Source: a virus
Virus record (IMG/VR): IMGVR_UViG_3300027714_000011
Coordinates: 14,554-78,553 of that record
Length of the DNA: 64,000 nucleotides
Direction: 5' to 3' (one strand)
Positions 1 through 56,200 of this stretch are shown here, in pieces. Positions within the stretch are counted from its first letter, which is position 1, and the number at the start of each line of letters is the position of its first letter. A program made the position numbers and the translations under genes. Under the pieces are notes generated by a model. The model was given only the letters and a program-made list of their open reading frames with translations. It did no database searches and had not been told where the DNA came from.

Positions 1-2501
1 AAACTAGTAAGGGCACATCACATTCAACAGTGACTGTATATACAACAACATGGCAAACTAATCACGGTACTTCTAGAGGCACGGCGCATTCAACAACAAC
101 TAAATGGAATACTAGTCAGTCAACAAGTAGAACTACTACAACGTCTTATACTACTTATTATAACACAACTAGGGGAACTTCTAGGGGAACTAGCAAAGCT
201 ACTACAACTACATGGTCAACGAGTAGAGGTACATCACATTCAACTACTACAGCGTATACAACTACGTTTAATACTAGTAGAGCAACAACTACTGCATGGA
301 CTACGTCATGGACTACTACTTTTGGAACTAGTAGAGGTACACAACATGCAACAACAACTACGTGGACAACAACATGGTCAACGAGTAGAGCTACAACAAC
401 TTCATATACAACTACATTTAACACTAGTAGAGGAACTAATAGAGGAACTAGTAAATCTACTACAACTACATGGCAAACCAGTAGAGGTACATCACATTCA
501 ACTCAGACAACATATAATACTAGTTGGAACACAACTAGGGCTACAACAACGTCATATAATACATCGTGGACTACTACGTTTGCAACGACACATTCAACAT
601 CTAGAGCCACTACTACGACGTGGGCAACGAGTAGAGGTACATCGCATTCAACTACTACAGCGTATACAACTACGTTTAATACTAGTAAAGCAACAACAAC
701 TACATGGACTACTTCATGGACAACCACTTATGGAACTAGTAGAGGTACGCAACACGCAACAACAACTGCGTGGACAACAACATGGTCAACGAGTAAATCT
801 ACAACAACTGCTTATACTACTTATTATAATACAACTAGAGGAACTAGTAGAGGAACTAGTAAATCTACTACAACCACATGGGGAACTAGTAAAGGTACAT
901 CACATTCAACAGTCACAGTGTATAATACTAGTTGGAATACATCTAGAAACACGACGACTTCATGGACTACTTCATGGACAACTACGTTTGCAACGACCCA
1001 TTCAACATCTAGAGCCACTACTACAACGTGGAACACCACTAGGGCTACAACGACTTCGTGGACTACTTATTATAATACCAGTAGAGGAACTAATAGAGGA
1101 ACTAGTAAATCTACTACTACGACATGGCAAACTAGTCACGGTACATCACGTTCAACAACGACTACGTATAATACTAGTTGGAACACTAGTAAAGCAACAA
1201 CGACTTCATGGACAACTTCATGGACAACTACGTTTGCAACGACCCATTCGACATCTAAAGCCACTACTACGACGTGGCAAACTAGTCGCGGTACATCACG
1301 TTCAACAACAACTACGTATAATACTGCTTGGAATACATCTAAAAACACGACCACTACATTTAATACAACAGTTTATACCGTATTCGCAACGAGTAGAGGT
1401 ACATCAAAGTCAACGACTACCAAATATGGTACATCAAAGTCAACGACTACCACATTTGGTACATCACATTCAACAACGACTGCATGGGTTGCTTCTAGAG
1501 GTACATCTAAGTCTACGACGACACAGTGGAGTACTGCTTGGAATACATCTAAGTCTACAACGACTAGGTATAACACTAGTAAATCAACGACTACTGTATG
1601 GGCTACTTCTTGGGCGACGTCTAAGTCAACTACGACTACTTGGTTGACATCTAGGTCTACGACCACTACGTTTAATACTAGTAAATCAACGACTACTACG
1701 TTTAACACTAGTAAATCAACGACTACATCATGGTCGTATAATGTTGGTACATCTAGAACGACACTTAAACATTATTCTAAAACAACACTTAAGACGTATA
1801 ATAGATCAACATATATTGATCGAAGTACAGTATATAATACTAGTTGGACACAATCCTCAGCAATCAACACGGCATGGAGTACTAGTTATTATATAAACAC
1901 AAAATGGACAACAGGTAGAAGCACAGTATCAGAGGAAATAGAGTGTATAGTAGAAGGCTCATTAGTGCATATTTCAACAACACAACAAGTTAAAGTTGAA
2001 ACATTGCAACCAGGTGATCCTATTTTAACATTAGATGGAACGTTCAATCTCGATGATGAGGATTTATTATTTGCATTAAAAGAAGACCAACTTTCCGATA
2101 TAAAATCAAATGATGATTATATATCAGCAATCATGGTTTCTCAAGTTACAGGCGTATGCGATATAAACAACGGTTTATTAAAAACAACACTCAATCACAT
2201 TCATATTGTAAAAAGAACTGTTCCAGATTCAGAAATTAAAAAATGGATTGCAATAGAAGGTTATCAACTAGTGGTTGGTGATATTTTATGGCACATCACT
2301 AATGGAGAAATTCCTATAACATCAGTAGCAGTAGACGAAACAAACATATATACTGTATATAAACTAGACGTTGAACCAAATGATGTCTTTTATGCTAACG
2401 GTATTTTAACGCATAACAGGAAATGTGATCCGGAGGAATATTGCAACCGCCGCAATATATGTTACGATCGATCAAAATGTTTGGACGATGGACAGTTTTA
2501 A
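1..2501 (+). CDS. 5'-truncated Thr/Ser-rich repeat (fibre-like) protein with C-terminal Hint domain and 27-aa Cys-rich tail
   Basis: Frame is open from nt 3 (TSKGTSHSTV...), so the GTG at 30 is not the true start. Repeats of xTx[RKHQ] and xTx[WYF]. Hint motifs C-IVEGSLV, TLNH and NGILTHN. Confidence 0.9.
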   Translation, partial: TSKGTSHSTVTVYTTTWQTNHGTSRGTAHSTTTKWNTSQSTSRTTTTSYTTYYNTTRGTSRGTSKATTTTWSTSRGTSHSTTTAYTTTFNTSRATTTAWTTSWTTTFGTSRGTQHATTTTWTTTWSTSRATTTSYTTTFNTSRGTNRGTSKSTTTTWQTSRGTSHSTQTTYNTSWNTTRATTTSYNTSWTTTFATTHSTSRATTTTWATSRGTSHSTTTAYTTTFNTSKATTTTWTTSWTTTYGTSRGTQHATTTAWTTTWSTSKSTTTAYTTYYNTTRGTSRGTSKSTTTTWGTSKGTSHSTVTVYNTSWNTSRNTTTSWTTSWTTTFATTHSTSRATTTTWNTTRATTTSWTTYYNTSRGTNRGTSKSTTTTWQTSHGTSRSTTTTYNTSWNTSKATTTSWTTSWTTTFATTHSTSKATTTTWQTSRGTSRSTTTTYNTAWNTSKNTTTTFNTTVYTVFATSRGTSKSTTTKYGTSKSTTTTFGTSHSTTTAWVASRGTSKSTTTQWSTAWNTSKSTTTRYNTSKSTTTVWATSWATSKSTTTTWLTSRSTTTTFNTSKSTTTTFNTSKSTTTSWSYNVGTSRTTLKHYSKTTLKTYNRSTYIDRSTVYNTSWTQSSAINTAWSTSYYINTKWTTGRSTVSEEIECIVEGSLVHISTTQQVKVETLQPGDPILTLDGTFNLDDEDLLFALKEDQLSDIKSNDDYISAIMVSQVTGVCDINNGLLKTTLNHIHIVKRTVPDSEIKKWIAIEGYQLVVGDILWHITNGEIPITSVAVDETNIYTVYKLDVEPNDVFYANGILTHNRKCDPEEYCNRRNICYDRSKCLDDGQF
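216..1031 (+). repeat. Two diverged copies of a 408-nt (136-aa) higher-order repeat in ORF1
   Basis: Blocks starting STSRGTSHSTTTAYTTTF (216) and ATSRGTSHSTTTAYTTTF (624) repeat the same 8-block pattern. Confidence 0.8.
1944..2417 (+). other. Hint (bacterial intein-like) autoprocessing domain
   Basis: Cys1 (E|CIVEGSLVHI), block-B TxxH (KTTLNH), C-terminal VYKLDVEPNDVFYANGILTHN. The +1 residue is Arg, not C/S/T. Confidence 0.9.
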
Positions 2502-2540
2502 ATAAAAGAAAAAGAAAAAGAAAAAGACTTAAATAATTAG

Positions 2541-5500
2541 ATGGCATCATACACTACATATTGGAGCGCTTCGAGAAGTGAAATAAGATACAGGAATACC
2601 TATCAAAATACTGCGATAGATCAAACTTATAGTAGGTCTACTTCCCATACTACAAGGGTCTATTACAACACGTCATGGACTGCTAACGCAACAACGTCAT
2701 GGACTGCTAACGTGACCACCGAATGGGCCACTTCATATTCAGCATCTAAGTCTACAACGACTACGTTTAATACATCTAAGTCTACAACGACTACGTTTAA
2801 TACATCTAAGTCTACAACGACTACGTTTAATACATCTAAGGCCACCACTACAGCATGGACTGCAAGTAGAAATACTAGTAGAGCTACTACAACTACATAT
2901 ATTACATCTAAGGCAACCACTACGGCGTGGACTGCAAAACGTAATACAACTAGAGCAACGACGACTTCATGGACTACTTCTTGGAATACTTCTAAGGCTA
3001 CAACGACTTCGTACAGCACATCTAGAAACACAACGACTTCGTATAATACAACGCATTCAACTACTACATCATATAGCACTTATTGGAATACAGCTAGAAA
3101 TACAACTAGGAGTACTAGTAAAAGTACCTCAACTACATGGTCAACTAGTCAAAGCACATCGCATTCAACGACTACGTCGTATACGACTTATTATAATACT
3201 AGTAAATCAACGACTACGACATATAACACAACATATAACACAACTAGGGGAACTAATAGAGGAACTAGTAAAACTACCACAACGACATGGTCAACTAGCC
3301 AATCTACTAAGCGTTCAACGACTACATCATATACGACTTATTATAATACTAGTAGAGCAACAACTACTGCATGGACTACGTCATGGACAACTACCTTTCA
3401 AACTAACAAAGGTACATCGCGTTCAACAACGACTACGTTTAACACTAGTAGATCAACGACTACGACATATAACACAACATATAACACAACTAGAGGTACA
3501 TCTAGGGGAACTAGTAAATCTACAGGGACTACTTGGTCAACTAGCCAATCTACTAAGCATTCAACGACTACTTCGTATACGACTTATTATAATACTAGTA
3601 GAGCAACAACTACTTCATGGACTACTTCATGGGTAACTACTTTTGGAACTAGTAGAGGTACATCACATTCGACAACAACTACGTTTAATACTAACCAATC
3701 AACTAGTAAATCTACAACTACGAAGTATACTACGTATTACAATACGAGTAGAGGTACATCTAGAGGAACTAGTAAATCTACAACAACCACGTGGGCAACA
3801 AGTAGAGGTACATCACATTCAACGACTACGTCTTATACAACTACGTTTAATACTAGTAAATCAACGACTACGACGTTTAATACAACATATAACACGGCTA
3901 GAGGTACATCTAGGGGAACTAGTAAATCTACCACAACTACATGGTCAACTAGTCAAAGTACTAAGCATTCAACGACTACTTCGTATACGACTTATTATAA
4001 CACTAGTAAAGCAACGACGACTTCATGGACTACATCATGGACAACTACTTTTGGAACTAGTAGAGGTACATCGCACTCGACAACGACTACGTTTAATACT
4101 AACCAATCAACTAGTAAATCTACAACTACGAAGTATACTACGTATTACAATACGAGTAGAGGTACATCTAGAGGAACTAGTAAATCTACCACAACTACAT
4201 GGGCAACTAGTAGAGGTACATCACATTCAACGACTACATCTTATACAACTACGTTTAATACTAACCAATCAACAACGACTGCATGGACTACTTCATGGGT
4301 AACTACTTTTGGAACTAGTAGAGGTACATCACATTCGACAACAACTACGTTTAATACTTCATGGCAAACAAGTAGAGCTACAACAACATCTTATACTACT
4401 TCATGGACTACATATTACAATACAAGTAGAAGTACAGAACATTCAACTACTACATCGTATACGACTAAGTTTAACACTAGTAACTCAACGACGACTTCAT
4501 GGACTACTTCATGGGTAACTACTTTTGGAACTAGTAGAGGTACATCGCATGCAACGACTACTGTATGGACTACTTCATGGCAAACGAGTAGAGCTACAAC
4601 AACAGCTTATACTACTTCATGGACTACATATTACAATACAAGTAGAAGTACAGAACATTCGACAACAACCGTATTCAATACAACATGGTCAACAAGTAAA
4701 GCTACAACAACAGCTTATACTACTTCATGGACTACGACATTTAATACTAATCAAAGTACAAAACATTCAACTACTACGTCTTATACAACTACGTTTAATA
4801 CTAGTAAATCAACGACTACGTCATATACTACTTCGTGGACCACGACGTTTAATACGAATAAATCTACTAGTCATTCAACGACTACTGTGTATACAACTAG
4901 TTGGAATACATCTAGGGGAACAAGTAGAGGTACGGAGCATTCAACAACAACCACATTTAACACTAATCAGTCTACTGAACATAGTACAACTACAACATAC
5001 TCGACATCGTGGACGACTTCATGGAACACTAGTCAATCCACTAGTCATTCAACGACACATAGTACAACTACTATTTGGGGTACTTCTTTAGGAACAAGTA
5101 GATCTACTAATCACTCAACGACAACAACATGGACAACATATTGGAATACTAGTCGAGTTGAGTCGCGTAACACTACGACTACGTGGGTGACACAAGATCA
5201 AACAAGTCAGTCAACTGTAACTGAGTGGACAACTTCATGGACAACTTCATGGAACACAAGTCAATCTACGGTAACTACGTGGACAACTTCATGGACAACT
5301 TCATGGAAAACAAGTCAATCTACTAATAAAAGTACAATGACTACGTGGAACACAACTAAGTCTACTGCGACAGTGTATACAACATCTAGAGTTACTTCTA
5401 CAACGTGGAATACAAGTCAGTCAACTAATAAAAATACGACAACAACATGGTCGACTTTATATGATGTGACTACTACTTGGACCACGTCTTGGAACACCAC

Positions 5501-5669
5501 TACTACATGGAATACAACTAAAGCTACCACTACCAATTGGACAACGAGTTATTCAACTGAATACGAAGCAAGAAGAACATGGTATGGAAAAGTCCACACA
5601 GGACATGAGATATTCCCTTACGCTACAGTACAACAGTGGAGAGTCAATTCTTATTTAGGTCGACCATAG
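2541..5669 (+). CDS. 1042-aa Thr/Ser-rich repeat protein, antiparallel partner of ORF1
   Basis: Same repeat grammar as ORF1 with mirrored block order and basic/aromatic counts swapped. Short unique C-terminal tail. Confidence 0.9.
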   Translation: MASYTTYWSASRSEIRYRNTYQNTAIDQTYSRSTSHTTRVYYNTSWTANATTSWTANVTTEWATSYSASKSTTTTFNTSKSTTTTFNTSKSTTTTFNTSKATTTAWTASRNTSRATTTTYITSKATTTAWTAKRNTTRATTTSWTTSWNTSKATTTSYSTSRNTTTSYNTTHSTTTSYSTYWNTARNTTRSTSKSTSTTWSTSQSTSHSTTTSYTTYYNTSKSTTTTYNTTYNTTRGTNRGTSKTTTTTWSTSQSTKRSTTTSYTTYYNTSRATTTAWTTSWTTTFQTNKGTSRSTTTTFNTSRSTTTTYNTTYNTTRGTSRGTSKSTGTTWSTSQSTKHSTTTSYTTYYNTSRATTTSWTTSWVTTFGTSRGTSHSTTTTFNTNQSTSKSTTTKYTTYYNTSRGTSRGTSKSTTTTWATSRGTSHSTTTSYTTTFNTSKSTTTTFNTTYNTARGTSRGTSKSTTTTWSTSQSTKHSTTTSYTTYYNTSKATTTSWTTSWTTTFGTSRGTSHSTTTTFNTNQSTSKSTTTKYTTYYNTSRGTSRGTSKSTTTTWATSRGTSHSTTTSYTTTFNTNQSTTTAWTTSWVTTFGTSRGTSHSTTTTFNTSWQTSRATTTSYTTSWTTYYNTSRSTEHSTTTSYTTKFNTSNSTTTSWTTSWVTTFGTSRGTSHATTTVWTTSWQTSRATTTAYTTSWTTYYNTSRSTEHSTTTVFNTTWSTSKATTTAYTTSWTTTFNTNQSTKHSTTTSYTTTFNTSKSTTTSYTTSWTTTFNTNKSTSHSTTTVYTTSWNTSRGTSRGTEHSTTTTFNTNQSTEHSTTTTYSTSWTTSWNTSQSTSHSTTHSTTTIWGTSLGTSRSTNHSTTTTWTTYWNTSRVESRNTTTTWVTQDQTSQSTVTEWTTSWTTSWNTSQSTVTTWTTSWTTSWKTSQSTNKSTMTTWNTTKSTATVYTTSRVTSTTWNTSQSTNKNTTTTWSTLYDVTTTWTTSWNTTTTWNTTKATTTNWTTSYSTEYEARRTWYGKVHTGHEIFPYATVQQWRVNSYLGRP
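3441..4256 (+). repeat. Two near-identical copies of a 408-nt (136-aa) higher-order repeat in ORF2
   Basis: The sequence ctaaccaatcaactagtaaatctacaactacgaagtatactacgtattac... occurs at 3691 and 4099, 408 nt apart. Confidence 0.85.
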
Positions 5670-5743
5670 TCTGCTAAAATAATTTAGATAAATAATTAAA
5701 CAAACTCTAATTTGTTTGTATAACTATTAAATTATTTTAACAT

Positions 5744-6655
5744 ATGGAAATGTTTAACAAAAAGGTTCTTAAGGAAAGAATAGGACCTCTTAAGAAAAAC
5801 GATAAACTTAACGCACTCGAACAAGTAGAGAGATACGTACTTAGAAAATGTAAAGAACTTGGATTAGAACATAGTTATGATGTAATAGCAGAAGAGATGC
5901 CATACTTTAAAACTATGGGATATACTGAATATGCTACGTGTTTTATGTTACAGCCCTTAAATTTAAAAATGAGAACTGCTCAGATCAATGATGCATATCA
6001 CGATAACGTGGATAATGTATCAGATTGGGCTGGTTATTTTAGAGCAAATGTTCAAGATAAGGTTGCTAATAAATATCAATCTCGTAAAGAGAATTTTAGT
6101 CAATGGCCTGCAAAACCAGTTTTAGTAGTTTTACCAGGATCTAATAAACTTAAATCAAACTGTTGTTTAAATAAATTAATAAAGGTTGCTGAAGAAAACA
6201 AAGGTAACATTTATTTTAAACCGCATCCTATCACAACACATGCTGTAATAGGCGAAATTAAAGATTTATTTGGTGAAGAATCTATTTTACCAAGAGACAT
6301 TGATCTTTATCACTTCATGCAACAAGCCGAAACAGTATACACTACACATATTAGCGAAAGTGCATTATATTCTTTAGTGTTGGGAAAAACAGTAGAACCA
6401 ATAGATGTTTGGAACAATGTACATCAAGGTTCATTTTATACTGTAAATTCTGCACTATTTGATAATGCTAGCAATGTTGATGAATGGATAAATAGAGTTT
6501 TTTCTAGTCCTAAATCAGGTATTATTAATCCAGCATTGGATACGGATTGGAAAGATAAAGTAGATAAGTACATGACATATATGTACGAAAAAAGAGAATT
6601 CTATAAAGGATGGTTTTTGGACCTTCCACCTAAAGTAAAACGTAACAAAGATTAA
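5744..6655 (+). CDS. GT-B glycosyltransferase, capsule biosynthesis KpsC/KpsS-like
   Basis: IYFKPHP and DLYHFMQQAETVYTTHISESALYSLVLGKTV resemble the HP and v.T.nS..g.EAl..GKpV motifs. Confidence 0.6.
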   Translation: MEMFNKKVLKERIGPLKKNDKLNALEQVERYVLRKCKELGLEHSYDVIAEEMPYFKTMGYTEYATCFMLQPLNLKMRTAQINDAYHDNVDNVSDWAGYFRANVQDKVANKYQSRKENFSQWPAKPVLVVLPGSNKLKSNCCLNKLIKVAEENKGNIYFKPHPITTHAVIGEIKDLFGEESILPRDIDLYHFMQQAETVYTTHISESALYSLVLGKTVEPIDVWNNVHQGSFYTVNSALFDNASNVDEWINRVFSSPKSGIINPALDTDWKDKVDKYMTYMYEKREFYKGWFLDLPPKVKRNKD

Positions 6656-6664
6656 ACCAAAAAA

Positions 6665-7093
6665 ATGCAAAGAAACATTAAATTTAATGAGAATGTCGGA
6701 GATGATGGACACTTGGTATCACCAGTATTAAAGAATGGTTGCAAAAACTATCTAATCGATATTGATGGAACTATTACAGATGACGTACCAAATGAAGAGC
6801 CAGAGAGAATGGCAGTAGTTCAACCTTATAAAGATTCTGTAGAAACACTTAACAGGTGGTATGACGAAGGTCATATTGTAACCTTCTTTACATCAAGAAC
6901 TGAAGAAGTTAGAGATATCACAGAAACATGGTTAAATGAGCACGGTTATAAGTATCATGGTTTATTAATGGGCAAACCTAGGGGTGGTAATTACCATTGG
7001 GTTGATAATCACATTGTCAAAGGAACTAGATATGAAGGTGTTTGGTCTGACCTAGTAAAAGAAGAAAGAATGATAGAAGTCTTTCCTTCATAG
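6665..7093 (+). CDS. HAD-superfamily phosphatase
   Basis: YLIDIDGT motif I, FTSR motif II, MGKP, WVDN. Confidence 0.8.
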   Translation: MQRNIKFNENVGDDGHLVSPVLKNGCKNYLIDIDGTITDDVPNEEPERMAVVQPYKDSVETLNRWYDEGHIVTFFTSRTEEVRDITETWLNEHGYKYHGLLMGKPRGGNYHWVDNHIVKGTRYEGVWSDLVKEERMIEVFPS

Positions 7094-7104: not shown

Positions 7105-8070
7105 ATGAAGAAGATACGCACATTTAATGATTTTATCAACGAAGCTGAGGAAGCTCAAGATCTACATAAGATTTATTTAGCATTTGATCCAGATTTGGGA
7201 CATCGTTTCTGGTCTTATAAAGATTTTGCTGGCGATAAGTTTTTTATCAGATTAACACCTGAGACATATAAGGATATAGAAATAAATAAGGATTATCCAG
7301 TTCTTACTTATAATTCAGATACTGTGCAAATGTTAATTGATAAGGATCTTATTAGTACTGATAATGTGTATAACCTTCCAGAATTTATTAAAAATTCAGG
7401 ATCTAAGAAAGAATTTCATAAAATAGTTGATGGTGATGATAACATCCCTAAAACTACAAGTGATCAAGATGATGCAATTAAACTTTTAGGATTTCCAATT
7501 ATTGCAAAACCAGCAGAAGGACATTCTGGAATTGGTATTGTTATTATGAAAGATCAAAAGGAATGGGATGCTACAGACCACGATAAGTTGGATGTGTATT
7601 CTCAGTATGTAGATAAAAAATCAGAGCACAGATTCTTTACATTTAAAGGAGAACCTTTCTTTTGGCAAGAAAGACAACCTACAAATGATAAGTCTAAGAA
7701 TGGTGGTGGTAATCCAGACGAAAAAATGGGATTCAATTATATTAAAAGAAACTCTGATAAAACACCACAAAAATATAGAGATCTAATAAAGAGATTTGGT
7801 GCAATGTTCTCAGATTTACCTTATATATGTTTTGATATAATGGAAGATCAAGATGGTAAATTATACATCATTGAAAGTAACAGTATGCCAGGTGTGCCGT
7901 TCGATGCAACTGTTGCAATATATAGAACTCTATTTAATGACTTTTATAAAAGAGGCGTGGACGGAAAAACAGATTTAAAATTAAAAGAATATTCGGATTT
8001 TATGTGTAAGAAATCAATGACACTTGATGGTGGAGATAGATTTAAATTAGGCACAGATCTAGAAGATTAA
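7105..8070 (+). CDS. ATP-grasp ligase (RimK-like) with capsid-targeting-like N-terminus
   Basis: FPIIAKPAEGHSGIGI, YSQYV..EHR, FDIMEDQDGKLYIIESNSMPG. N-terminus MKKIRTFNDFINE. Confidence 0.8.
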   Translation: MKKIRTFNDFINEAEEAQDLHKIYLAFDPDLGHRFWSYKDFAGDKFFIRLTPETYKDIEINKDYPVLTYNSDTVQMLIDKDLISTDNVYNLPEFIKNSGSKKEFHKIVDGDDNIPKTTSDQDDAIKLLGFPIIAKPAEGHSGIGIVIMKDQKEWDATDHDKLDVYSQYVDKKSEHRFFTFKGEPFFWQERQPTNDKSKNGGGNPDEKMGFNYIKRNSDKTPQKYRDLIKRFGAMFSDLPYICFDIMEDQDGKLYIIESNSMPGVPFDATVAIYRTLFNDFYKRGVDGKTDLKLKEYSDFMCKKSMTLDGGDRFKLGTDLED

Positions 8071-10300: not shown

Positions 10301-10511
10301 ATTAGCAAAAGAACTTATTGTTCAATTAAAAAGGATTGCAGACGCATTAGAAAGTTCTAATAAAACATTAGAGACTTCTGAGAAACGATCGGTTATTCTA
10401 GAAAAACTACAAGAGAAAAACTTAAGAGCTGACTTAAGAGAAAAACTTAATATTGAAGAACCTACAACTAGACCATCCCCTAGATTAGAAAAAAATGATG
10501 GATCCGTATAA
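10290..10511 (+). CDS. hypothetical coiled-coil protein
   Basis: LKRIADALE heptads; overlaps both neighbours. Confidence 0.65.
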   Translation: MEDKLAKELIVQLKRIADALESSNKTLETSEKRSVILEKLQEKNLRADLREKLNIEEPTTRPSPRLEKNDGSV

Positions 10512-11301
10512 TATATTAGGAGTAGATAAATCATCTTCACAAGACGATATTAAAAAAGCGTATAGATCATTAGCTAAGAAGCATCATCCTGATAAAAACA
10601 ATGGAGATGATGTTAAATTCAAAGAAATTGCTGATGCTTATGAAAGGATAGGGGATCCTTCATCTAGAAAGGATTATGATCAGGCTTCCAATTTTCAAAA
10701 CTTTAATGGATTCGATGGGCGAGTTAATATGTCCGATGTATTCGATCAGGTTTTTGGCAATGCATTTGGTTCTAATAAACAATCAACTAAAGGTGATAAT
10801 CTCAGATTAGATTTACACTTAAGTTTTGATGAAGCATATTCAGGGACTAGTAAACAATTCGCAGTAAACGGAAAAGATTTAAAGGTAGATTTTAAACCTG
10901 GTTTAAAAACAGGAATGAAACTTAGAATCAGTGGAAAGGGACAACCTCATCAATACAATAGTACCTTACCAAATGGAGATCTCATAGTCCACATACATGT
11001 TATGTTTAGACCAGAATGGATACTACAAGGTGATGATATATGGTTAGAATTAAATTTACCATGGTATGATATAACGATTGGTACTAAAATAGCAGTTGAC
11101 ACACCAGAGGGTAAGATATACATCAATGTTCCTAAGAATAGTTATCCTGGAAAAACACTAAGAATTAGGGATAGAGGCTATCCTATATATGGCACAGAAA
11201 ATAAAGGTGCACTTTTATGTAAATTAAACGCAACATATTCTGACTTAAATGAGGAACAATTAGAATATATAAAGAAAGTAAAAGACGCTTATGATGGATG
11301 A
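10495..11301 (+). CDS. dnaJ: DnaJ/CbpA-type co-chaperone (class B, no Zn finger)
   Basis: J-domain YNILGV...KKAYRSLAKKHHPDKN, G/F region, DnaJ C-terminal domain. Confidence 0.9.
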   Translation: MMDPYNILGVDKSSSQDDIKKAYRSLAKKHHPDKNNGDDVKFKEIADAYERIGDPSSRKDYDQASNFQNFNGFDGRVNMSDVFDQVFGNAFGSNKQSTKGDNLRLDLHLSFDEAYSGTSKQFAVNGKDLKVDFKPGLKTGMKLRISGKGQPHQYNSTLPNGDLIVHIHVMFRPEWILQGDDIWLELNLPWYDITIGTKIAVDTPEGKIYINVPKNSYPGKTLRIRDRGYPIYGTENKGALLCKLNATYSDLNEEQLEYIKKVKDAYDG

Positions 11302-12125: not shown

Positions 12126-12833
12126 ATGAGTAGAGGAACTGAAAAGCAAACGAGACAGAGCAAAGGCGGAACAATTGATTCCGGTTTAAAACGAGTTACA
12201 CTTAGACAATCCCAACACAAATATGTAAAAACAATAGAAGAAAACGATATCACATTTTGTTACGGACCAGCAGGAACATCAAAAACATTTACAGCATGTT
12301 TCGTAGCACTTAAATTATTACAAGAAAAGAAGATTAAAGAAATTATCCTTTGTAAGCCCATTCAAGAGGCAGGTGAAAAGTTAGGATTTTTACCAGGTAC
12401 TAAAGAAGAAAAGATGGATCCTTACATGAATTCGTATGTGTCAAACATTACGAAAATCGTAGGAGGACAACAAGCAAAATATTTATTTGATAGTAAAACT
12501 ATTAGATTTGAACCACTTGCATATATGAGAGGCGACACTTTCGATGATGCACTTATGGTTTTAGATGAGGCACAGAACGCCACGTTTAAACAACTGATGT
12601 TATTTGTTACTCGTATGGGTAAAAGCAGTAGAGTAGTTGTAACAGGAGATGTTAGTCAACATGATATCGCTAGACAACATGTTGGTCTTCCTGGTTTTAT
12701 AGAAATCATGAAAGGCGTAAAAGGAATAGGCGTCCACGTATTTGATAACAAAGATATTGTTAGAGCTAAGATTTTACAGGAAGTTGTACAGAGGTATGAT
12801 GATTGGAAATCTAAAAACGAAAGTAAATTTTAG
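12126..12833 (+). CDS. phoH: PhoH-family ATPase
   Basis: GPAGTSKT, LGFLPG, LAYMRGDTF, DEAQN, VTGDVSQHD. Confidence 0.93.
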   Translation: MSRGTEKQTRQSKGGTIDSGLKRVTLRQSQHKYVKTIEENDITFCYGPAGTSKTFTACFVALKLLQEKKIKEIILCKPIQEAGEKLGFLPGTKEEKMDPYMNSYVSNITKIVGGQQAKYLFDSKTIRFEPLAYMRGDTFDDALMVLDEAQNATFKQLMLFVTRMGKSSRVVVTGDVSQHDIARQHVGLPGFIEIMKGVKGIGVHVFDNKDIVRAKILQEVVQRYDDWKSKNESKF

Positions 12834-12875: not shown

Positions 12876-13508
12876 ATGGATCAATATAAAATACTATTAA
12901 AACACAGTCACACTGGTGAGCAATCTATTATAGAGATTGGATTAGACGAAGCAGGCCGAGGAGCACTTGCAGGTCCAGTTACTGTCGCAGCATGTATTAT
13001 GCCATTTGGATTTCAACATGAAATCATTAAAGACTCCAAACTATTAAGTGAACCACAACGAGTAGATGCAAGGCGCATGGTATTAGAGAACGCGTTGGCG
13101 TGGTCTGTAGTACACATTCCAGTCGAAGAGATAGAATCTACTAATATTTTAAAAGCTACGCTGAATGGCATGAGGGTGTGCTTGGACAACGTTAAAAAAG
13201 ATCATGATTTTGATTTTATTTTAGTAGACGGAGATCAATTTCATGGTTACGATGGAATTCCTTTTGAAACAGTAGTCGGAGGAGACAACATATACACCAA
13301 TATTGCAGCAGCTTCTATTCTAGCCAAAACAGAAAGAGATCTTCTTATGAAAGGATTGAGTAGTGATTTTCCAGAATACGGATGGGGTTCTAATAAAGGA
13401 TATGGCACTAAACAACATAGAGACGCCATCGTAAGCGAAGGAGCAACTGATCATCATAGAAATTCATTCATTAGTCACATGTTGACTACAACCAATACTT
13501 TATTTTGA
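12876..13508 (+). CDS. rnhB: Ribonuclease HII
   Basis: GLDEAGRGALAGPV, DSKLL, AAASILAK, NKGYGT. Confidence 0.93.
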   Translation: MDQYKILLKHSHTGEQSIIEIGLDEAGRGALAGPVTVAACIMPFGFQHEIIKDSKLLSEPQRVDARRMVLENALAWSVVHIPVEEIESTNILKATLNGMRVCLDNVKKDHDFDFILVDGDQFHGYDGIPFETVVGGDNIYTNIAAASILAKTERDLLMKGLSSDFPEYGWGSNKGYGTKQHRDAIVSEGATDHHRNSFISHMLTTTNTLF

Positions 13509-49458: not shown

Positions 49459-52400
49459 ATGAATACTAACAACTCTATTTCTAATTCGCTCAAGAAACTA
49501 CTTGAAATTAACTCTAACTCTTTAAGAACGTTTGAGAGAATTAATGAGGCGATAACCACAGATCAAAAAGATGTACCACTTGAGTTACTAACTGAAGATG
49601 GAACTAAAACTGTTTATGTACCTTCATTTGGTTACATGAAAAGAGAATTAGAGAGATTAGACGTTAACTTAAAATCTTTAGCAGGATTGGGTAAAGGTAA
49701 TACTAGGATTAAGTTACCAGATGGTACATATCAGAGTATTATTACTACTAGATTAAAAACACCAGCTAATGATATTACTAGTTTTTCTAGACCAGTAAAT
49801 TTTTCAACTAAATCAAATTATTTCTTTGAGGATTTCTTAAACCCTATATTGACGACATCATTTAATGTGGGTGGTCAAATTCCAAATAACACAGAAAGAA
49901 TTTTAGTCAAAAGAATTTTATTAGATTCAAGTAACGCAGTTACTGTTGATTATTTTAATGCTAATTTTAAAAACAAAGAAGGACTAGATTATTCTACTGT
50001 AATTAGAGATATTGCAAACAATAATTTAACATATACATTAGACGAAGATACTCGTGATTTACCATATAAAACAGTACAATTCTCTGGTAAGTTTGACGTA
50101 TTAAAAATCAGCAACTCAAAAAGAGAAGTGCTTGTTAATTCAAGTAGCGGATCAGGAGCTGGAGCTGGAGCATTAGTTAAAAGAGCTATAAAATTATATA
50201 CACTTGATTCGTTAACATATAACGATTCTAATAAAGATTTAAAAAACACAGAGTTATTAAAAGTAGGTGATGAATTAATGGTCCAAAGCGGAGCAAGAAA
50301 CACCAGGTATAAAATAACAAGAATTGATGGTTCAACTAATCAAGTAGAATTATTAATAATTGAAGGATATGAATCAATTAAAATAGGTGCCAATCTACTT
50401 GGAATTTATAAGAATGACAATAATGATTTAACGGTTAATGTTAATGTAGGATTTAATGAAAGAGTTTTAATATTTGTTAAAGCGATCGATCCTGATTCTA
50501 AAATGTTAGCTGAATCATGGTCACCTGGAATTGGATTGTACACTAATGAATTAACACTAATTCAAGTCGATGGTTCAAATATACGATTAGACGATTACTA
50601 TAAGGAAGAGGTTTCTGATTTTGGAAAATATATCAGTGCTCTTAAAGAGGACTCTATTCCTCCTGCTACTTTAGGTATCACACCTGATGCTCCGGCATTG
50701 GAACTTAACAACTTTAAGGTAGTACAAATTAACTCTCACCTGACGGCTAACGATACTTCTGATAAGATTAAGAAATTATCAGCTGATAAAATTAATGTTG
50801 AAGAGAAGATTAAAAAATTAGATGAGACTATAGTTAAAAAGAGGTCAGAGATTTCTACTAAGAAATATGAATCTAATATCCAGAAAGATAAAGATAGAAA
50901 TGCTCTAAATGCTCTTATTACAGAGAGAACTAGTGAAACTAGTCTATATAATAGTATTGTAAATCAAATTCAATCTCTAGCATCTGGTAATAGTGCAACT
51001 AAAGTTTCTCCTAAATATAGAGTTAGAGGTTTTTGGGAAGTACCAAGCCCTAAAAAAGTTGCCGACACGGTTGATCAAAATATTGTAAAATTTGTTGTAC
51101 AATATAGATATTTGTCAACTAGTGGAAAGGCAAGCGAAGTTACTCAACTTCCATTCACAGAAGGTACTAGACAGAAAACTGCGGTATTTTCTAATTGGAA
51201 TGAAATACAAACTAAGGTCAGAGACAGATATAGAAACGCCTCTACTAGAAAGTTTGAATGGAAAGATAGTTTAGTTGAAGATGCACAGGCTGTAAACTTT
51301 AATCAGTTGGATATTTCTATCAATGAAGGAGAATTAATTGAAATTAGAGCTAAGTCTGTTTCTGAAGCAGGTTATCCTGCAAACCCAATATATTCTGATT
51401 GGTCAGAAGCAATCACTATTGATTTTCCAATAGCTGAAATAGACACAACTAATGTTGATGTGCTTATAATGACAAATGCTGCGGAAACAGCATCAGTTAA
51501 AATTTCACAGGAACTTACTTCTAAAGGAGTATTTTCACACATTAATGATTCATTTAGTGCCAATGAAAAGTATTATGCACACAGTGCAACTAGTATTGCT
51601 TCTGGATTTCTATCAGCTGAGCAAAAACCAATATCGGTTTATGATAAGATTGCAGAATTAGAAGCACAAATCGCGGGACTTAAAGACACTGTTGAAGTTG
51701 AAATAGGCGAGTTGATAGTTAAAATAATGGATGAAGACGGTACAGTAACTGTCATCAATAACGATACTAAAAATGAAATATTTGCAGGTTACTATACTGA
51801 TGAGGTTGCAAGTTTAACTATTAAGAAGGGCCATATTGTCACAAAGACATTTAAACTTCTTTTGGAAAATACTAAAGCTACTAAATTAGAACTAGTTTCT
51901 AGATTAATAGGTGATAGAAATTTACCGGCATATAGATCAACTTCTACAATATCTACAATATCCTCTAATGGATTTGGTGTAAAATTAAATGACAGTGGAA
52001 ATACTGACGTAGACAATAAGGTTAGTTCTGATAATTATTATACATCTGAAGGTAAATATGATTTAGTGCCTATTCAATACCAAAATATTGATAATACATC
52101 TATATCGTCATATGACTTATTGGCAGAGGCGCCATATCAATCAGCACAAAGACGTGGTCAATTTGTATATTCTAGATTTATGGATATAGCAAATCAAAAC
52201 CCGCTATACACTACTGAATCACTATTGGACACAACTGGTGGCGGTAACAGTTTTATTAATTACGAATACAGTTTAAATTACGCGGATTTTCAAGGAACAG
52301 ATTCTGTAACCCTAGAGAGTGTCACTGGTGATGGAGATTCAGTTGATTTTATATGGACTGGAACATTCGGCAGATCAAGCCTTGGAGTTTCGGCTAATGC

Positions 52401-53211
52401 CGACATATCTAGTGACTTTAGTTCGTCTAAAGTTGACGTATGTAGTATTGGTACTATAGGAGCTGCAAATTATAATAATGGTTTGTTTCTTCATAAGGAC
52501 CACCCAGATTTAGAAAATCTATATCAGGATTTACAAGATAACGGCTCGTCCAATAATGCAAATGTAACTGTTGCTGAACAACAAACCAATATTCAAACCT
52601 TAGTAAATAACGCTCTATATACTATGCCAATACCATCTACGTATGCTACTGGAACTTCATATGTATATAGTGGTTTAGCAATAGGTTCTTCATTCTCACC
52701 TTCTGCTGTAAACGCTAATAAGGCAACCAAACAATTAGCGTTTCAGAAAACTTCAAATTTAATTACTGAAGGAGATAGAACCTTCAAAATGTCATTCGAC
52801 GCAAATGATCAATATCTTTTAGGTGGAAGATCATGTGGTGCGTTCTTATTCTTATCGCCTATTAATTTAAATACATTAAAAGTCGGGGGTGATACACGTC
52901 AAAGTAGAAAAAATATAAAAAAGAAAGTTGGTAATTTAGATAGCTCTAGTGCACTTTCAGTAGATATTGTTTTCCAGTACAGGATGACAGATTACTTTGG
53001 AAATGATTCCGATTCTGATATAGGTAGAGTTGGGGGACAAGCTAAATTAAGATTTCCTAATTTAACATATACCAAGAAGATAGGATTAGACATTTTTGAT
53101 AAGTATGACCAACAATTCTCATTTGATTTAGAGGTATTTGCTAAATACAGCCCAAGAGGTAAAAACTTAAACTCTATCAGAGCTGCAAAATTGACTAGAT
53201 TCGGTAACTAA
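49459..53211 (+). CDS. large probable structural protein
   Basis: 1250 aa; coiled coil and FN3-like segment (IRAKSVSEAGYP..YSDWS). Confidence 0.6.
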   Translation: MNTNNSISNSLKKLLEINSNSLRTFERINEAITTDQKDVPLELLTEDGTKTVYVPSFGYMKRELERLDVNLKSLAGLGKGNTRIKLPDGTYQSIITTRLKTPANDITSFSRPVNFSTKSNYFFEDFLNPILTTSFNVGGQIPNNTERILVKRILLDSSNAVTVDYFNANFKNKEGLDYSTVIRDIANNNLTYTLDEDTRDLPYKTVQFSGKFDVLKISNSKREVLVNSSSGSGAGAGALVKRAIKLYTLDSLTYNDSNKDLKNTELLKVGDELMVQSGARNTRYKITRIDGSTNQVELLIIEGYESIKIGANLLGIYKNDNNDLTVNVNVGFNERVLIFVKAIDPDSKMLAESWSPGIGLYTNELTLIQVDGSNIRLDDYYKEEVSDFGKYISALKEDSIPPATLGITPDAPALELNNFKVVQINSHLTANDTSDKIKKLSADKINVEEKIKKLDETIVKKRSEISTKKYESNIQKDKDRNALNALITERTSETSLYNSIVNQIQSLASGNSATKVSPKYRVRGFWEVPSPKKVADTVDQNIVKFVVQYRYLSTSGKASEVTQLPFTEGTRQKTAVFSNWNEIQTKVRDRYRNASTRKFEWKDSLVEDAQAVNFNQLDISINEGELIEIRAKSVSEAGYPANPIYSDWSEAITIDFPIAEIDTTNVDVLIMTNAAETASVKISQELTSKGVFSHINDSFSANEKYYAHSATSIASGFLSAEQKPISVYDKIAELEAQIAGLKDTVEVEIGELIVKIMDEDGTVTVINNDTKNEIFAGYYTDEVASLTIKKGHIVTKTFKLLLENTKATKLELVSRLIGDRNLPAYRSTSTISTISSNGFGVKLNDSGNTDVDNKVSSDNYYTSEGKYDLVPIQYQNIDNTSISSYDLLAEAPYQSAQRRGQFVYSRFMDIANQNPLYTTESLLDTTGGGNSFINYEYSLNYADFQGTDSVTLESVTGDGDSVDFIWTGTFGRSSLGVSANADISSDFSSSKVDVCSIGTIGAANYNNGLFLHKDHPDLENLYQDLQDNGSSNNANVTVAEQQTNIQTLVNNALYTMPIPSTYATGTSYVYSGLAIGSSFSPSAVNANKATKQLAFQKTSNLITEGDRTFKMSFDANDQYLLGGRSCGAFLFLSPINLNTLKVGGDTRQSRKNIKKKVGNLDSSSALSVDIVFQYRMTDYFGNDSDSDIGRVGGQAKLRFPNLTYTKKIGLDIFDKYDQQFSFDLEVFAKYSPRGKNLNSIRAAKLTRFGN

Positions 53212-53271: not shown

Positions 53272-56200
53272 ATGGCCGTAACATCGATTTTACTTAAAAC
53301 CAACGGAGAGACAACGAGCGCACTATCATGCTCAAACACTTCTGTTGGTACACGCACATTAGATTATGATGATGCAAATCCAATCACTATTGGTGTAACG
53401 ATATTATATGAAACGTTTGACACTGTTCATTTTATAGGCGGAGACCTATGGTACGTACTGGATAGTGGAACAAAAACATATCAAATAAATAATAGCGGTG
53501 TGGTGATTGACATATCATCATGTTTGCCACCGACTGCAACGCCAGTTCCGACTGCAACGCCAGTTCCGACTGCAACGCCAGTTCCGACTGCAACGCCAGT
53601 TCCGACTGCAACGCCAGGTCCGACTGCAACACCAGATATATTGGCTCCAATAATATTGATTACAGGGCAAAATCCTTATCAAATTGAAGTCTCCTCTACA
53701 TATAATGATGCCGGCGCTACTGCTGATGGTGGAGAAACAGTTACTTCTACTGGAACTGTTGATACCTCAACAGTTGGAGTGTATACTATTACTTACTCAG
53801 CTACTGATGCTGCTAATAATACAGGAACTGCTAATAGAACAGTGAATGTAGTTGACACTACTATTCCAGTAATTACCTTATCAGGTGCTAATCCCCTAAA
53901 CATTAATGTTAATAGTGCATATGTTGATCCTGGATATACTGCAACTGATAACTATGACGGTGATATTACAAGCACCGTAAGCATTAGTGGAGACACAGTA
54001 GATGTCAGTACAGTGGGTGTATACACAATTACTTACAATGTAACTGATGCAGCAACAAATCCAGCTGTTCCAAAAACTAGAACTGTAAATGTAAACGACA
54101 CTTCAGCTCCAGTTCCAGACGACGCAACATATGATGTTGCATGGAATAGTTTTAAAAACATCATGTTAACTGCAACTGATAATGTAGACTTAAGCGGGGA
54201 TTTAACATATACTATAGAAACTAATCCCAGTAAAGGTACTTTATCTACGCTCAGTGGTAATACAATTACATACACACATACTGACACTGTATACGGCTCG
54301 GATTCTTTTACTTTTAAAGCTACAGATTCAGAAAACAACGTTTCAAACATTGGTACTATTACATTAAATCCATTAAACAGTGCACCTGTAATAACTGGAC
54401 CCAATATAGTTACTTTATTGCAAACAGAAATAGCAAGCTTTTCTATTGGAATCTCTGATAGCGATAGCGATGCTGTAAATATTGTAGAAATAACTGCAGT
54501 TGCAAATGGTACGATATCTACAACGACGACTACATCAGGGTTAGAGGTAACATATACACCTAATGTTGGACATTCTGGCGGTGATCAATGGATTATCAAA
54601 GGAGAAGATTCTAAAGGTGAAAGCTCAAACACATTAACGATTAATTTTGCTATTGAAGCGGTTCCTTATTTCGAAATGAATGCAGGCTCTTATGGAAGTG
54701 ACGAAAGTGAATTATGTCTTGCAGATACACCCTTTATATTATATGGTAAAACTTTACAGGCTAACAATGCAGTAGGCTTGGCGGTTGGAAATACATTATA
54801 TCAAGATAATAATTTGACGAATCCATTAACATGGACCGGAAGCGGGGATAATTCATTCCCTGTTTCAGATACAAGTGGAAAGCGTATACTTACTATTGAT
54901 ACCAATGGTTTAATCACAGCAATAGCTGATTCATGTGGGGACGATGTTGATTCAACATCAACTGACGTCAAATATGCAACAAATGCCATAGCATTTTGCG
55001 AAGGAGATACAGAGAACACTAGTGTATGGTATAACGGAACAGCCGAACAAACACTAGCAGAACTGGTTGCTGCAGGAATACCTCTTTTTATCGACAAGTA
55101 TTCTTCTGATTTATACACCCTAACAGAAGGCGCCACATTGCAAGGTGTTATAGATAGTGGAATTTATAGTGGAATTAACGAAAATATTCGATATTATAAG
55201 AGATCTACTGTAAACAATTGGGGTGCAACTGGTGATGTTGTAGATCCATATTTATGGAAATGTGAAGAACCAGTGGTTAATACGGTTCATGAATTAACAT
55301 CAATATACAAATCAAATTTAACCGATCCTGGTATAAATGAATTTTGTCAAGCGACACAGTCGGTTGTAAGTTTGTTTTATGTTTTACCAGAAGGTGTTAA
55401 TCCATATACTAATCTTATATCATTAGCTCAATCTAACACGTTAGTTTATATGTCATATGACGGTGCACTAGGTGAAGATCCAATTGATTTATTTGAATCT
55501 AATGTATTTTCAACCACCAGCAACACTGACGTGAATACTGAGTATTTAATTTGGGAAAATACTGGAGACGGTATAAATTTAAAATGGTTAGGATATGATA
55601 ATAACGGGCTCGTTGCTTTTGGTAATCAAATCACGGTAACTGGTAAATGTTCGAGTTACGAAAAACCAGCATTAACTTCAGTCTCAAGGAGTAATATTGA
55701 TGGAACTGAATTTTCTAACAACTCAGTATTCTATGCATTTTATTCATGCGATCCTGAAATAGAAGGTCCGGAATTAGGTAATGAAACAGAAACATTATTT
55801 TGGCCAATATATGTCATAGACAGCTTACACCTGGATTCTTCTGGAGATACAGGTAGTTATATAAAAGATTTTATAGATACTTTATCATTCGACAATGTGA
55901 TAAAGACCAGTGACTTTGGAAGTTGTTTAGAGTACGCGTTTAAAATAGTAGCAGAAGATTTAGACGATGCTATTTCAATATTAAATAAAGACTTTGAGCT
56001 TACTTCAAAACAAAGGACAGTGGTTTCAAGTGGCACAAGAATAGGTTTAGGTAGTGAAAGCACAGTAAATGTTTATGAAAATTCAGAATCAAGTGAGTGT
56101 GTTTCAGGTGTTACGTCTAATATTTTAAATACGTACACATTCCCAATAGTTCCTAACTATGACAATATTAACGCTAGACCTAACTTTAATACTCAAACAA

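What the first reader, a model, noticed from the sequence alone, without database searches (positions are those of the whole stretch)
1..5669. Two adjacent proteins are reverse complements of each other: a coded antiparallel protein duplex
Seen in sequence: both proteins consist of blocks of n tetrapeptides xTx[R/K/H/Q], a 2-aa spacer, then m tetrapeptides xTx[W/Y/F] (written n/m). ORF1, N to C: 2/2,3/1,2/2,3/1,2/2,1/3,2/2,1/2,3/1,2/2,1/3,2/1,2/2,1/3,2/2,1/2,3/1,2/2,1/3,2/1,1/2,3/1,2/2,1/3,2/1,2/2,1/3,2/1,1/1,1/1,2/2,1/1,1/2,1/1,1/1,1/1,1/1. ORF2 from residue 67: 1/1,1/1,1/1,1/1,2/1,1/1,2/2,1/1,1/1,1/2,3/1,2/2,1/2,3/1,2/2,1/3,2/1,1/2,3/1,2/2,1/3,2/1,2/2,3/1,2/2,1/2,3/1,2/2,1/3,2/1,2/2,3/1,2/2,1/3,2/2,1/3,2/2,... 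This is ORF1 read backwards with n and m swapped, in 37 of 37 blocks with no gap (about 126 basic-aromatic pairs; one aromatic slot holds Val). Residue i of ORF1 (track numbering) faces residue 638-i of ORF2, e.g. W568-K70 and W8-R630. It is not a DNA inverted repeat, so the complementarity exists only at protein level. Established knowledge: Thr favours beta strands, and cross-strand cation-pi ladders occur in thrombospondin repeats and WSXWS motifs. Inference: the two chains zip into one antiparallel beta-ribbon whose aperiodic pattern sets partner, register and length, much as base pairing does. At about 3.3 A per residue that is roughly 200 nm for the visible part and 300 nm or more in full, possibly a virion whisker or fibre. 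I know of no described system like this.
Basis: partly seen in the sequence, partly recalled or inferred. Interest (0 to 1): 0.97.

Follow-up and report, generated by a model that had tools for sequence, protein, structure and literature searches.

The report
Mirror-coded two-chain phage fibre zipper
Two neighbouring genes of an uncultured marine jumbo phage encode ~1000-residue threonine-rich proteins that match residue by residue when one is read backwards (aromatic opposite basic, Thr opposite Thr); related phages change both genes in step, which points to a very long two-chain beta 'zipper' fibre held in register by a pairing code that I found in no paper or structure database.

Summary
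With the full ORF1 (1211 aa; it starts 1135 nt upstream of the window) and ORF2 (1042 aa), one gapless antiparallel register (i+j=1026) gives 185 Arg/Lys/His-aromatic pairs and 4 clashes over about 1000 residues. The next best offset gives 111/23, and block shuffles reach at most 88 (z=15).

The match is not in the DNA. The genes share only direct repeats.

Two other phage lineages carry the same gene pair with different codes. Each pair is complementary only to its own partner, with mirrored indels and double swaps such as R:W to W:Q.

The pairing is residue-specific: His faces only Tyr, Gln faces Trp, Arg/Lys face Trp/Phe/Tyr.

Single-chain relatives (baseplate-wedge proteins of T4-like phages, including Stenotrophomonas phage DLP6) fold back on themselves with the same grammar.

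ORF1 ends in a Hint/BIL self-processing domain that starts where ORF2's N-terminus lies in the register.

Best reading: a register-coded heteromeric antiparallel beta fibre of about 330 nm. Stoichiometry and place on the virion are unknown.

This scan found the same kind of pair before on other DNA. I found no publication.

The parts
1..1943 (+). ORF1 zipper region. This is the window part, residues 380-1026 of the 1211-aa protein. The gene starts at contig position 13419, 1135 nt upstream of window base 1 (L001:13419-17054).
   Evidence: Translation. Gapless antiparallel complement to ORF2 at i+j=1026. On the code face, 265 Thr:Thr plus about 205 aromatic:basic/Gln pairs out of 496 positions.
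1944..2417 (+). ORF1 Hint / bacterial-intein-like (BIL) self-processing domain, Cys1027 to Asn1184. It has Cys1, a TLNH block B at residue 1108, a terminal His-Asn, and Arg at +1 (no nucleophile).
   Evidence: Weak Pfam Hint_2 and Intein_splicing hits. Conserved motifs in 6 homologues. AF2 model with pLDDT 79.6. Foldseek top hits are BIL2 6Y75 (E 8e-9), C. thermocellum BIL 2LWY, inteins and hedgehog 1AT0.
2418..2501 (+). ORF1 27-aa Cys-rich tail after the Hint domain (4 conserved Cys), plus the stop codon.
2502..2540 (+). 39-nt A-rich spacer between ORF1 and ORF2. The genes are probably co-transcribed.
   Evidence: No terminator-like site between the genes.
2541..5669 (+). ORF2, 1042 aa. Residues ~6-1006 (nt 2556-5558) are the mirror complement of ORF1. 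The last ~36 residues are a conserved non-repeat end (motif QWRVNSY).
   Evidence: The C-terminal motif is conserved in L002 and L004.
197..1031 (+). Two copies of a 408-nt tandem duplication in ORF1 (residues ~445-722).
   Evidence: TRF, 86% matches. By my arithmetic its mirror partner region in ORF2 is residues 304-581.
3432..4263 (+). Two copies of a 408-nt tandem duplication in ORF2 (residues ~298-575), at the position that pairs with the ORF1 duplication.
   Evidence: TRF, 92% matches. Arrays of period 54, 216, 258 and 246 nt are mirrored in the same way (plus my arithmetic).

Best explanation
ORF1 (residues ~20-1020) and ORF2 (residues ~1006-6) lie side by side as extended, antiparallel beta strands over about 1000 residues. 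That would make a fibre of roughly 330 nm at ~3.3 A per residue.

Anatomy of the pairing:
- Every second residue lies on a 'code face'. There, Thr faces Thr, and each aromatic residue faces a cationic or amide residue of the other chain: His:Tyr, Gln:Trp, Arg/Lys:Trp/Phe/Tyr.
- The other face is small and polar (Ser/Thr/Asn/Gly/Ala).
- The aperiodic order of 10-, 14- and 18-residue blocks allows only one register and only the cognate partner. Neither chain can pair with itself.

Inferred steps:
- ORF2's first-made end pairs with ORF1's last-made end, and the genes are 39 nt apart. Zipping can therefore start at that end and follow ORF2 synthesis.
- The Hint/BIL domain of ORF1 begins exactly at that end. 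It most likely forms a thioester at Glu1026|Cys1027 and removes itself and the Cys-rich tail, or transfers the fibre end to a nucleophile.
- Genomic context is collagen-like fibre genes directly upstream, in a jumbo myophage. Single-chain relatives are fused to a baseplate-wedge domain. Together these suggest an external virion fibre or whisker, strongly cationic (pI > 10), for contact with host surfaces.

Shown: the sequence complementarity, its co-variation between lineages, and the Hint fold.
Inferred: the beta structure, the stoichiometry, the processing, and the location and function.
For: - Gapless complement: 185 pairs and 4 clashes, z=15.
- Blind upstream test passed.
- Residue-level specificity in three lineages: His only with Tyr (42/42, 14/14, 17/17) and Gln with Trp (23/25, 28/29, 28/29).
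- A bulky Tyr on the other face sits opposite Gly in 15 of 21 cases.
- Strict two-residue alternation; 0 Pro and 0 Cys in ORF1 residues 1-1026, and 2 Pro and 0 Cys in ORF2.
- Orthologous pairs have different codes. They are complementary within a pair (183/6 and 187/7) but not with this window's pair (at most 111 pairs with at least 27 clashes).
- Between the two closer lineages there are mirrored indels: +24 and +10 aa in ORF1, +10 and +24 aa in ORF2. 842 of 864 homologous pairs stay partners, with 7 double changes such as R:W to W:Q and T:T to R:F.
- The code face is 90% conserved against 75-77% for the other face.
- Tandem duplications of equal period sit at mirrored positions in the two genes.
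- In 18 of 18 PF23786 baseplate-wedge proteins of 1244-1416 aa, the best self-antiparallel register puts the C-terminus opposite residue 653-663 (z 4.9-8.6). This implies a fold-back hairpin whose arms change length together.
- Small stalk-head proteins do the same.
- Hint fold and catalytic motifs are present.
- Collagen-like fibre genes lie upstream. The contig has a baseplate gene and a jumbo-phage helicase.
Against: - There is no structural evidence. AF2 of a single-chain stalk protein gave pLDDT 29.
- Neither face is aliphatic-hydrophobic, so an isolated two-stranded ribbon 330 nm long may need further association.
- No virion proteomics or expression data exist for this uncultured phage.
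- No homologue was found in the imaged relatives PAU, PTm1 and MA9V-2, so no micrograph can be linked to it.
- The exclusive His:Tyr pairing could partly reflect their fixed positions at block junctions.
Confidence: 0.75

Rival explanations
1. Same pairing, higher-order assembly. The ORF1:ORF2 duplex is only the repeating unit of a thicker fibre. One option is three duplexes forming a six-stranded antiparallel needle, like the T4 gp37 tip. Another is two ribbons packed through their small-residue faces.
For: The gp37 needle is a six-stranded antiparallel beta structure made by three chains (PMC9659904). Phage fibres are usually trimers. The single-chain relatives sit on a baseplate-wedge domain. 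The Ser/Thr/Asn/Gly/Ala face could pack against another ribbon.
Against: No HxH metal motifs occur in either zipper. There is no aliphatic core face. No second complementary register was detected between or within the chains: the next best offsets give 111/23, and self-pairing gives at most 94 with 34 or more clashes.
Confidence: 0.3
2. The pair is not an external fibre. It would be an internal or scaffold-like polycationic rod, for example one that binds DNA or measures a length inside the particle.
For: Both chains are very basic: pI 10.4-10.9, about 170 Lys+Arg against 27 Asp+Glu. No receptor-binding domain was recognised.
Against: The genes lie in a conserved block directly after a collagen-like fibre gene. 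Single-chain relatives are fused to a baseplate-wedge domain, and others carry C-terminal globular heads typical of fibres.
Confidence: 0.08
3. The complementarity is a by-product of shared ancestry. Both genes are built from the same code-palindromic repeat modules, so they look complementary without ever binding each other.
For: The genes share direct DNA repeats of 72-88% identity. Some super-units, such as 1/2,3/1,2/2,1/3,2/1, are their own mirror complement.
Against: Each chain is poorly complementary to itself. Non-palindromic spacers are complementary, not identical: 2/2,1/3,2/2 faces 2/2,3/1,2/2. Shifting by one repeat period loses about 40% of pairs and adds about 20 clashes. Mirrored indels and double swaps between lineages need selection on the pair.
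Confidence: 0.03

Closest known systems
T-rich C-terminal region of PF23786 'baseplate wedge subunit' proteins of T4-like phages (e.g. Stenotrophomonas phage vB_SmaS-DLP_6, P0040)
   Same: The same xTx[aromatic] / xTx[basic] grammar (phmmer E 1e-10 to 1e-26 against ORF2). The same antiparallel aromatic:basic and Thr:Thr complementarity.
   Different: It is a single chain that folds back on itself, with arms of about 300-375 residues, and is fused to a 540-aa baseplate domain. It uses Phe/Tyr:Arg pairs and hardly any Trp. It has no Hint domain. The fold-back property is not described in the DLP6 paper.
Needle domain of the T4 long-tail-fibre tip, gp37 (Bartual et al. 2010, as described in PMC9659904)
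   Same: A phage fibre made of long antiparallel beta strands. I recall that in the structure each chain runs out and returns; the text I read does not state this.
   Different: It is a homotrimer of about 200 residues per chain. I recall that it is held by HxH-bound iron. There is no sequence similarity, no aromatic:basic code, and it is not made of two gene products.
Trp-Arg (cation-pi) ladders of thrombospondin type-1 repeats and the WSXWS motif; Trp-zipper hairpins
   Same: Aromatic and cationic side chains from neighbouring strands alternate on one face of a small beta structure (my own knowledge).
   Different: Those are 3-6 layers inside one disulfide-bonded domain. Here there are about 200 pairs between two chains, no Cys, a four-residue spacing, and the pattern works as an address.
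Heterodimeric coiled coils (a/d/e/g heptad code) and collagen heterotrimer registers
   Same: A fibrous protein whose partner choice and register are set by a simple repeating side-chain code.
   Different: Those are alpha-helical or PPII and mostly periodic. This is beta, antiparallel, aperiodic and about 1000 residues long.
A-type bacterial intein-like (BIL) domains; BIL2 of the Tetrahymena BUBL locus (PDB 6Y75)
   Same: The ORF1 C-terminal domain has the Hint fold, an N-terminal Cys, a TxxH block, a terminal His-Asn and no +1 nucleophile. BIL domains auto-cleave at their N- or C-terminus (PMC7765530).
   Different: It sits at the end of a phage fibre protein. Sequence similarity is below Pfam thresholds. 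Its activity is untested.

Membership tests
Hint superfamily, A-type BIL domain (ORF1 residues 1027-1184) | Hint (hedgehog/intein) fold | tested here: met
   AF2 model with pLDDT 79.6 and pTM 0.75. Foldseek probability 1.00 to BIL2 6Y75 (E 8e-9), 2LWY, inteins and 1AT0.
Hint superfamily, A-type BIL domain (ORF1 residues 1027-1184) | N-terminal nucleophile (Cys1), block B TxxH, C-terminal His-Asn | tested here: met
   Cys1027, TLNH at 1108 and HN at 1183-1184. Cys1 is present in the five homologues whose aligned segment includes that position. The block B His and the terminal His-Asn are invariant in all six.
Hint superfamily, A-type BIL domain (ORF1 residues 1027-1184) | Reaches the Pfam gathering score for Hint_2 or Intein_splicing | tested here: not met
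   16.6 bits against 28.4, and 15.8 bits against 35.8. This is a divergent member by sequence.
Hint superfamily, A-type BIL domain (ORF1 residues 1027-1184) | Autocatalytic cleavage or transfer at its N- and C-termini | not testable with these tools
   Needs expression and mass spectrometry.
Canonical (splicing) intein | Cys/Ser/Thr nucleophile at +1 after the terminal Asn; inserted in a conserved host protein | tested here: not met
   The +1 residue is Arg here, and Asn or Lys in the relatives. Only a 27-aa tail follows.
T4 gp37 needle domain | Sequence homology to the gp37 tip; HxH metal-binding repeats | tested here: not met
   No PDB sequence hit at E<=1. No HxH in either zipper.
PF23786 baseplate-wedge proteins with a T-rich hairpin | N-terminal PF23786 domain | tested here: not met
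   No Pfam hit for ORF1 or ORF2. Only the repeat region is shared.
PF23786 baseplate-wedge proteins with a T-rich hairpin | Thr-alternating repeats with antiparallel aromatic:basic complementarity | tested here: met
   Here the complementarity lies between two chains instead of within one.
Thrombospondin type-1 repeat / WSXWS ladder | WxxW motifs with conserved disulfides in a ~60-aa domain | tested here: not met
   No Cys in either zipper, aromatic spacing of 4, and no Pfam hit.
TxT ice-binding / beta-solenoid repeat proteins | Constant coil length so that the TxT motifs stack | tested here: not met
   Block lengths vary aperiodically among 10, 14 and 18 residues. No Pfam hit.

The most novel reading that the evidence does not exclude
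The Hint/BIL domain does more than cut. Its thioester at Glu1026|Cys1027 lies opposite ORF2's N-terminus in the register: Met1 faces residue 1025 here, and 10 residues before the Hint Cys in the two other lineages. It could therefore be resolved by ORF2's alpha-amine or a nearby side chain. That would ligate the two chains into one covalently closed hairpin of about 2070 residues, the two-gene equivalent of the single-chain fold-back fibres. The zipper code would then also template a protein ligation. It would be a natural, orthogonal 'protein base-pairing' system that could be reprogrammed.
Probability: 0.12. Interest if true: 0.97.

Novelty: categorically new. Interest (0 to 1): 0.92.

Why it matters
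If the two chains zip as the sequences imply, this is a natural protein analogue of nucleic-acid duplex formation. It is a long, aperiodic, residue-level code with pairs His:Tyr, Gln:Trp and Arg/Lys:Trp/Phe. The code would specify partner, polarity, register and length of a beta-structured fibre.

It would add a new architecture to the short list of fibrous protein folds: coiled coil, collagen, triple beta-helix or spiral, and amyloid.

It would explain how a phage can build a fibre hundreds of nanometres long from low-complexity sequence without register errors.

It would offer designers orthogonal, addressable beta 'zippers'. Different phage lineages already carry mutually incompatible codes.

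It also makes the evolution of mirrored indels in two genes, and the role of a Hint domain in fibre maturation, directly testable.

Tried and rejected
- AF2 without an alignment on a natural single-chain stalk protein (P0026): pLDDT 29, uninformative.
- tblastn of ORF2 and of the Hint domain against 50,697 phage records: no match. The low-complexity filter may have contributed.
- Whole-record search of Sphingomonas phage PAU, Tenacibaculum phage PTm1, Chryseobacterium phage MA9V-2 and uncultured phage LR756500: no homologue. The 'hairy' or head-fibre morphologies of those relatives therefore cannot be tied to this pair.
- Pfam on the whole proteins: nothing. PDB sequence search with ORF2 and P0040: nothing. 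ESM Atlas: only a 53-member viral 'hypothetical protein' cluster and no model.
- DNA-level explanations (inverted repeat, mirror repeat, complement): rejected.
- Self-complementarity of each chain: rejected.
- Sequencing runs: the locus is held by about 20 marine or seawater DNA runs from 8 studies. No RNA holder is listed.
- Laying contigs of four runs: the contigs break inside the repeats, so they say nothing about matched indels in the population.
- Literature searches by concept and by repeat motif strings: no description found.
- The metagenome scan with the Hint alignment returned only the two lineages already known.
Full report
**What is there**

The window opens inside a long ORF (window 3-2501). 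A second ORF follows 39 nt later (2541-5669). The window is bases 14554-78553 of a single 78,553-bp contig. Reading upstream, ORF1 starts at contig position 13419 and is 1211 aa. ORF2 is 1042 aa.

Both proteins are about 40% Thr and strictly two-residue periodic. ORF1 residues 1-1026 contain no Pro and no Cys. ORF2 has two Pro and no Cys. Both are very basic, with pI 10.4-10.9.

**Check of the observation**

I scored every antiparallel offset for Arg/Lys/His opposite Trp/Tyr/Phe.
- The window part alone gives 125 pairs and 1 clash at one offset. The next best offset gives 78 pairs with 11-22 clashes. Neither protein is complementary to itself.
- With the full ORF1, the same register (i+j=1026) gives 185 pairs and 4 clashes with no gap. 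It runs from ORF1 ~20-1020 against ORF2 ~1006-6. The next best offset gives 111/23.
- 2000 block shuffles of ORF2 reach at most 88, so z=15.4.

- The 379 ORF1 residues outside the window give 74 pairs (Gln counted), 4 clashes and 109 Thr:Thr at exactly the predicted offset. The next offset gives 51.
- 12 of the 13 predicted blocks are found. The single miss is a basic slot occupied by Leu.

**It is a protein-level property**

blastn finds 1073 plus-strand matches between the genes and one minus-strand match. Identity to the reverse complement, the complement or the mirror image of ORF2 is at background at every offset. The two genes are therefore direct paralogues built from shared repeat modules (72-88% DNA identity). 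The order of their block code, however, is mirrored.

**Anatomy of the code**

On one face (every second residue, 496 positions) there are 265 Thr:Thr pairs and about 205 aromatic:basic/Gln pairs. The other face is Ser/Thr/Asn/Gly/Ala.

Pairing is residue-specific in this phage and in two others:
- His faces only Tyr: 42/42, 14/14 and 17/17.
- Gln faces Trp: 23/25, 28/29 and 28/29.
- Arg/Lys face Trp/Phe/Tyr.

On the small face, an occasional Tyr sits opposite Gly in 15 of 21 cases. Same-parity residues facing each other is what an antiparallel beta pairing gives (established knowledge).

**Co-variation**

A scan of viral contigs found the same gene pair in IMGVR_UViG_3300009495_000010 (L002: 1116 and 940 aa). 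It was also found in IMGVR_UViG_3300003937_000081 (L004: 1149 and 974 aa). Gene order, the ORF1 N-terminus (MKNIGFS...), the Hint end and the ORF2 C-terminus (QWRVNSY) are all the same. Metagenome contigs of 144-173 kb carry the first lineage again.

Each pair is complementary in its own register: 183 pairs/6 clashes at i+j=928, and 187/7 at 962. Crossing either lineage with this window's proteins gives at most 111 pairs with at least 27 clashes.

The two closer lineages are 82-83% identical and differ as follows.
- ORF1 has insertions of 24 and 10 aa. ORF2 has insertions of 10 and 24 aa, in mirrored order and position.
- 842 of 864 homologous residue pairs remain partners.
- Seven pairs changed on both sides, for example R:W to W:Q, T:T to R:F (twice), and Y:R and W:R to T:T.
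- The code face is 90% conserved. The other face is 75-77% conserved.

Within this phage, tandem duplications of period 54, 216, 258, 408 and 246 nt in ORF1 have counterparts of the same period in ORF2. By my arithmetic they sit at the mirrored positions.

**Relatives with one chain**

A full HMMER scan and a word-based search found about 20 proteins of 1244-1416 aa. They carry an N-terminal PF23786 'baseplate wedge' domain followed by the same Thr-alternating repeats. One is annotated in Stenotrophomonas phage DLP6.

In 18 of 18 full-length members, the best self-antiparallel register puts the C-terminal residue opposite residue 653-663, whatever the total length (z 4.9-8.6). The pairs are mainly Phe/Tyr:Arg, with Thr:Thr in phase. 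These are single-chain fold-back versions of the same zipper.

Small proteins of 180-300 aa have two complementary arms around a globular domain, and the C-terminus pairs with residue ~9-11.

The grammar is thus a recurrent building principle of phage fibres. The pair studied here is its two-gene form.

**The Hint domain**

ORF1 residues 1027-1184 have the following features.
- Weak Pfam hits to Hint_2 and Intein_splicing.
- A Cys1, present in the five homologues whose aligned segment covers that position, and a block B His (TxxH here) and terminal His-Asn that are invariant in all six.
- A confident AF2 model (pLDDT 79.6).
- Best structural matches to BIL2 of Tetrahymena (6Y75), the C. thermocellum BIL domain (2LWY), inteins and the hedgehog autoprocessing domain.
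- A +1 residue that is not a nucleophile, as in A-type BIL domains, which auto-cleave (PMC7765530).

In the register, ORF2 Met1 faces ORF1 residue 1025, two residues before the catalytic Cys. In the other lineages it lies 10 residues before the Cys. Self-removal is the likely outcome. Ligation to ORF2 is a speculative possibility.

**Context**

The contig is a fragment of an uncultured marine jumbo myophage.
- Its helicase is 45% identical to that of a 462-kb uncultured phage. It is about 31% identical to those of PAU, PTm1, MA9V-2 and the Lak phages.
- It carries a baseplate wedge gene.
- The locus occurs in marine and seawater metagenomes of 8 studies.
- Two collagen-like GXY fibre genes lie directly upstream. 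The nearer one is syntenic in the other lineages.
- Relatives of this phage group carry head fibres or mop-like tail fibres (PMC7824862). However, PAU, PTm1 and MA9V-2 have no homologue of the pair.

**Interpretation**

The only explanation I can find for a gapless, co-varying, residue-specific mirror match is direct antiparallel side-by-side pairing of the two chains along their whole length.

These parts are inference: the extended beta conformation, the length of about 330 nm, co-translational zipping from the ORF1-C/ORF2-N end, and an external fibre role. The quaternary state is open: a two-stranded ribbon, a bundle like the gp37 needle (PMC9659904), or stacked ribbons. No structure prediction of the complex was possible.

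**Novelty**

There was no Pfam family, PDB relative or paper. The ESM Atlas holds only an unnamed viral cluster. The same kind of pair has been noted and confirmed by this scan in other genomes. Those notes agree with what I tested here but are not independent publications.

Noticed in passing
L001:3366-6407 and L001:10421-13390 (contig, upstream of the window): Two ~1000-aa collagen-like (Gly-X-Y) fibre proteins with globular N- and C-terminal domains. The second lies directly before ORF1 and is syntenic in L004, L008 and L009.
   Followed up: partly
window 62847-63998 (3'-open) and 61121-62815: The last ORF of the contig matches the N-terminus of a 413-aa protein of L005 (7218-8456) that ends in the same type of Hint domain (...LDVEPND...THN). 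A second structural protein of this phage therefore probably also carries a C-terminal Hint. The 564-aa ORF before it has tail-fibre-like PHROG hits.
   Followed up: partly
P0006; L005:7218-8456; L007:6933-8486: Unrelated phage proteins (734, 413 and 518 aa) end in the same C-terminal Hint/BIL module with the motif ANG[IV][LV]THN. It appears to be a mobile 'fibre-end' processing module in large phages.
   Followed up: partly
window 6665-7093, 7105-8070; L001:8531-9730: Genes for a HAD/LNS2-like phosphatase, a sugar-transfer-associated ATP-grasp enzyme and a DUF2827 protein flank the fibre genes. The L002/L004 lineage instead has glycosyltransferase-like and 2OG-oxygenase-like ORFs downstream. 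These could be fibre-modifying enzymes. The zippers contain 39 and 51 N-x-S/T sequons.
   Followed up: no
window 10495-11301, 12126-12833, 12876-13508: Phage-encoded DnaJ (J domain plus C-terminal domain), PhoH and RNase HII.
   Followed up: no
window 53272-61119 and 49459-53211: Very large ORFs (2615 and 1250 aa) of unknown function in the tail/baseplate region. The 914-aa ORF at 44176-46920 matches only an unknown PHROG.
   Followed up: no
window 1-6000: GC skew is negative (-0.13 to -0.14) over the two zipper genes and positive almost everywhere else on this one-strand contig. This is a compositional footprint of the ACN-rich Thr coding.
   Followed up: no
P0007 (4608 aa) and P0014 (498 aa): The best HMMER hit of ORF2 is a 4608-aa protein with a ~600-residue T-rich segment (2964-3585). 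P0014 has a 260-aa zipper-type N-terminal region and a globular C-terminal domain. Neither was analysed for a partner.
   Followed up: no
window 5672-5742: An AT-rich inverted repeat (15-nt arms, 93% complementary) lies directly after the ORF2 stop. It is not a G+C-rich terminator by the consensus scan.
   Followed up: no
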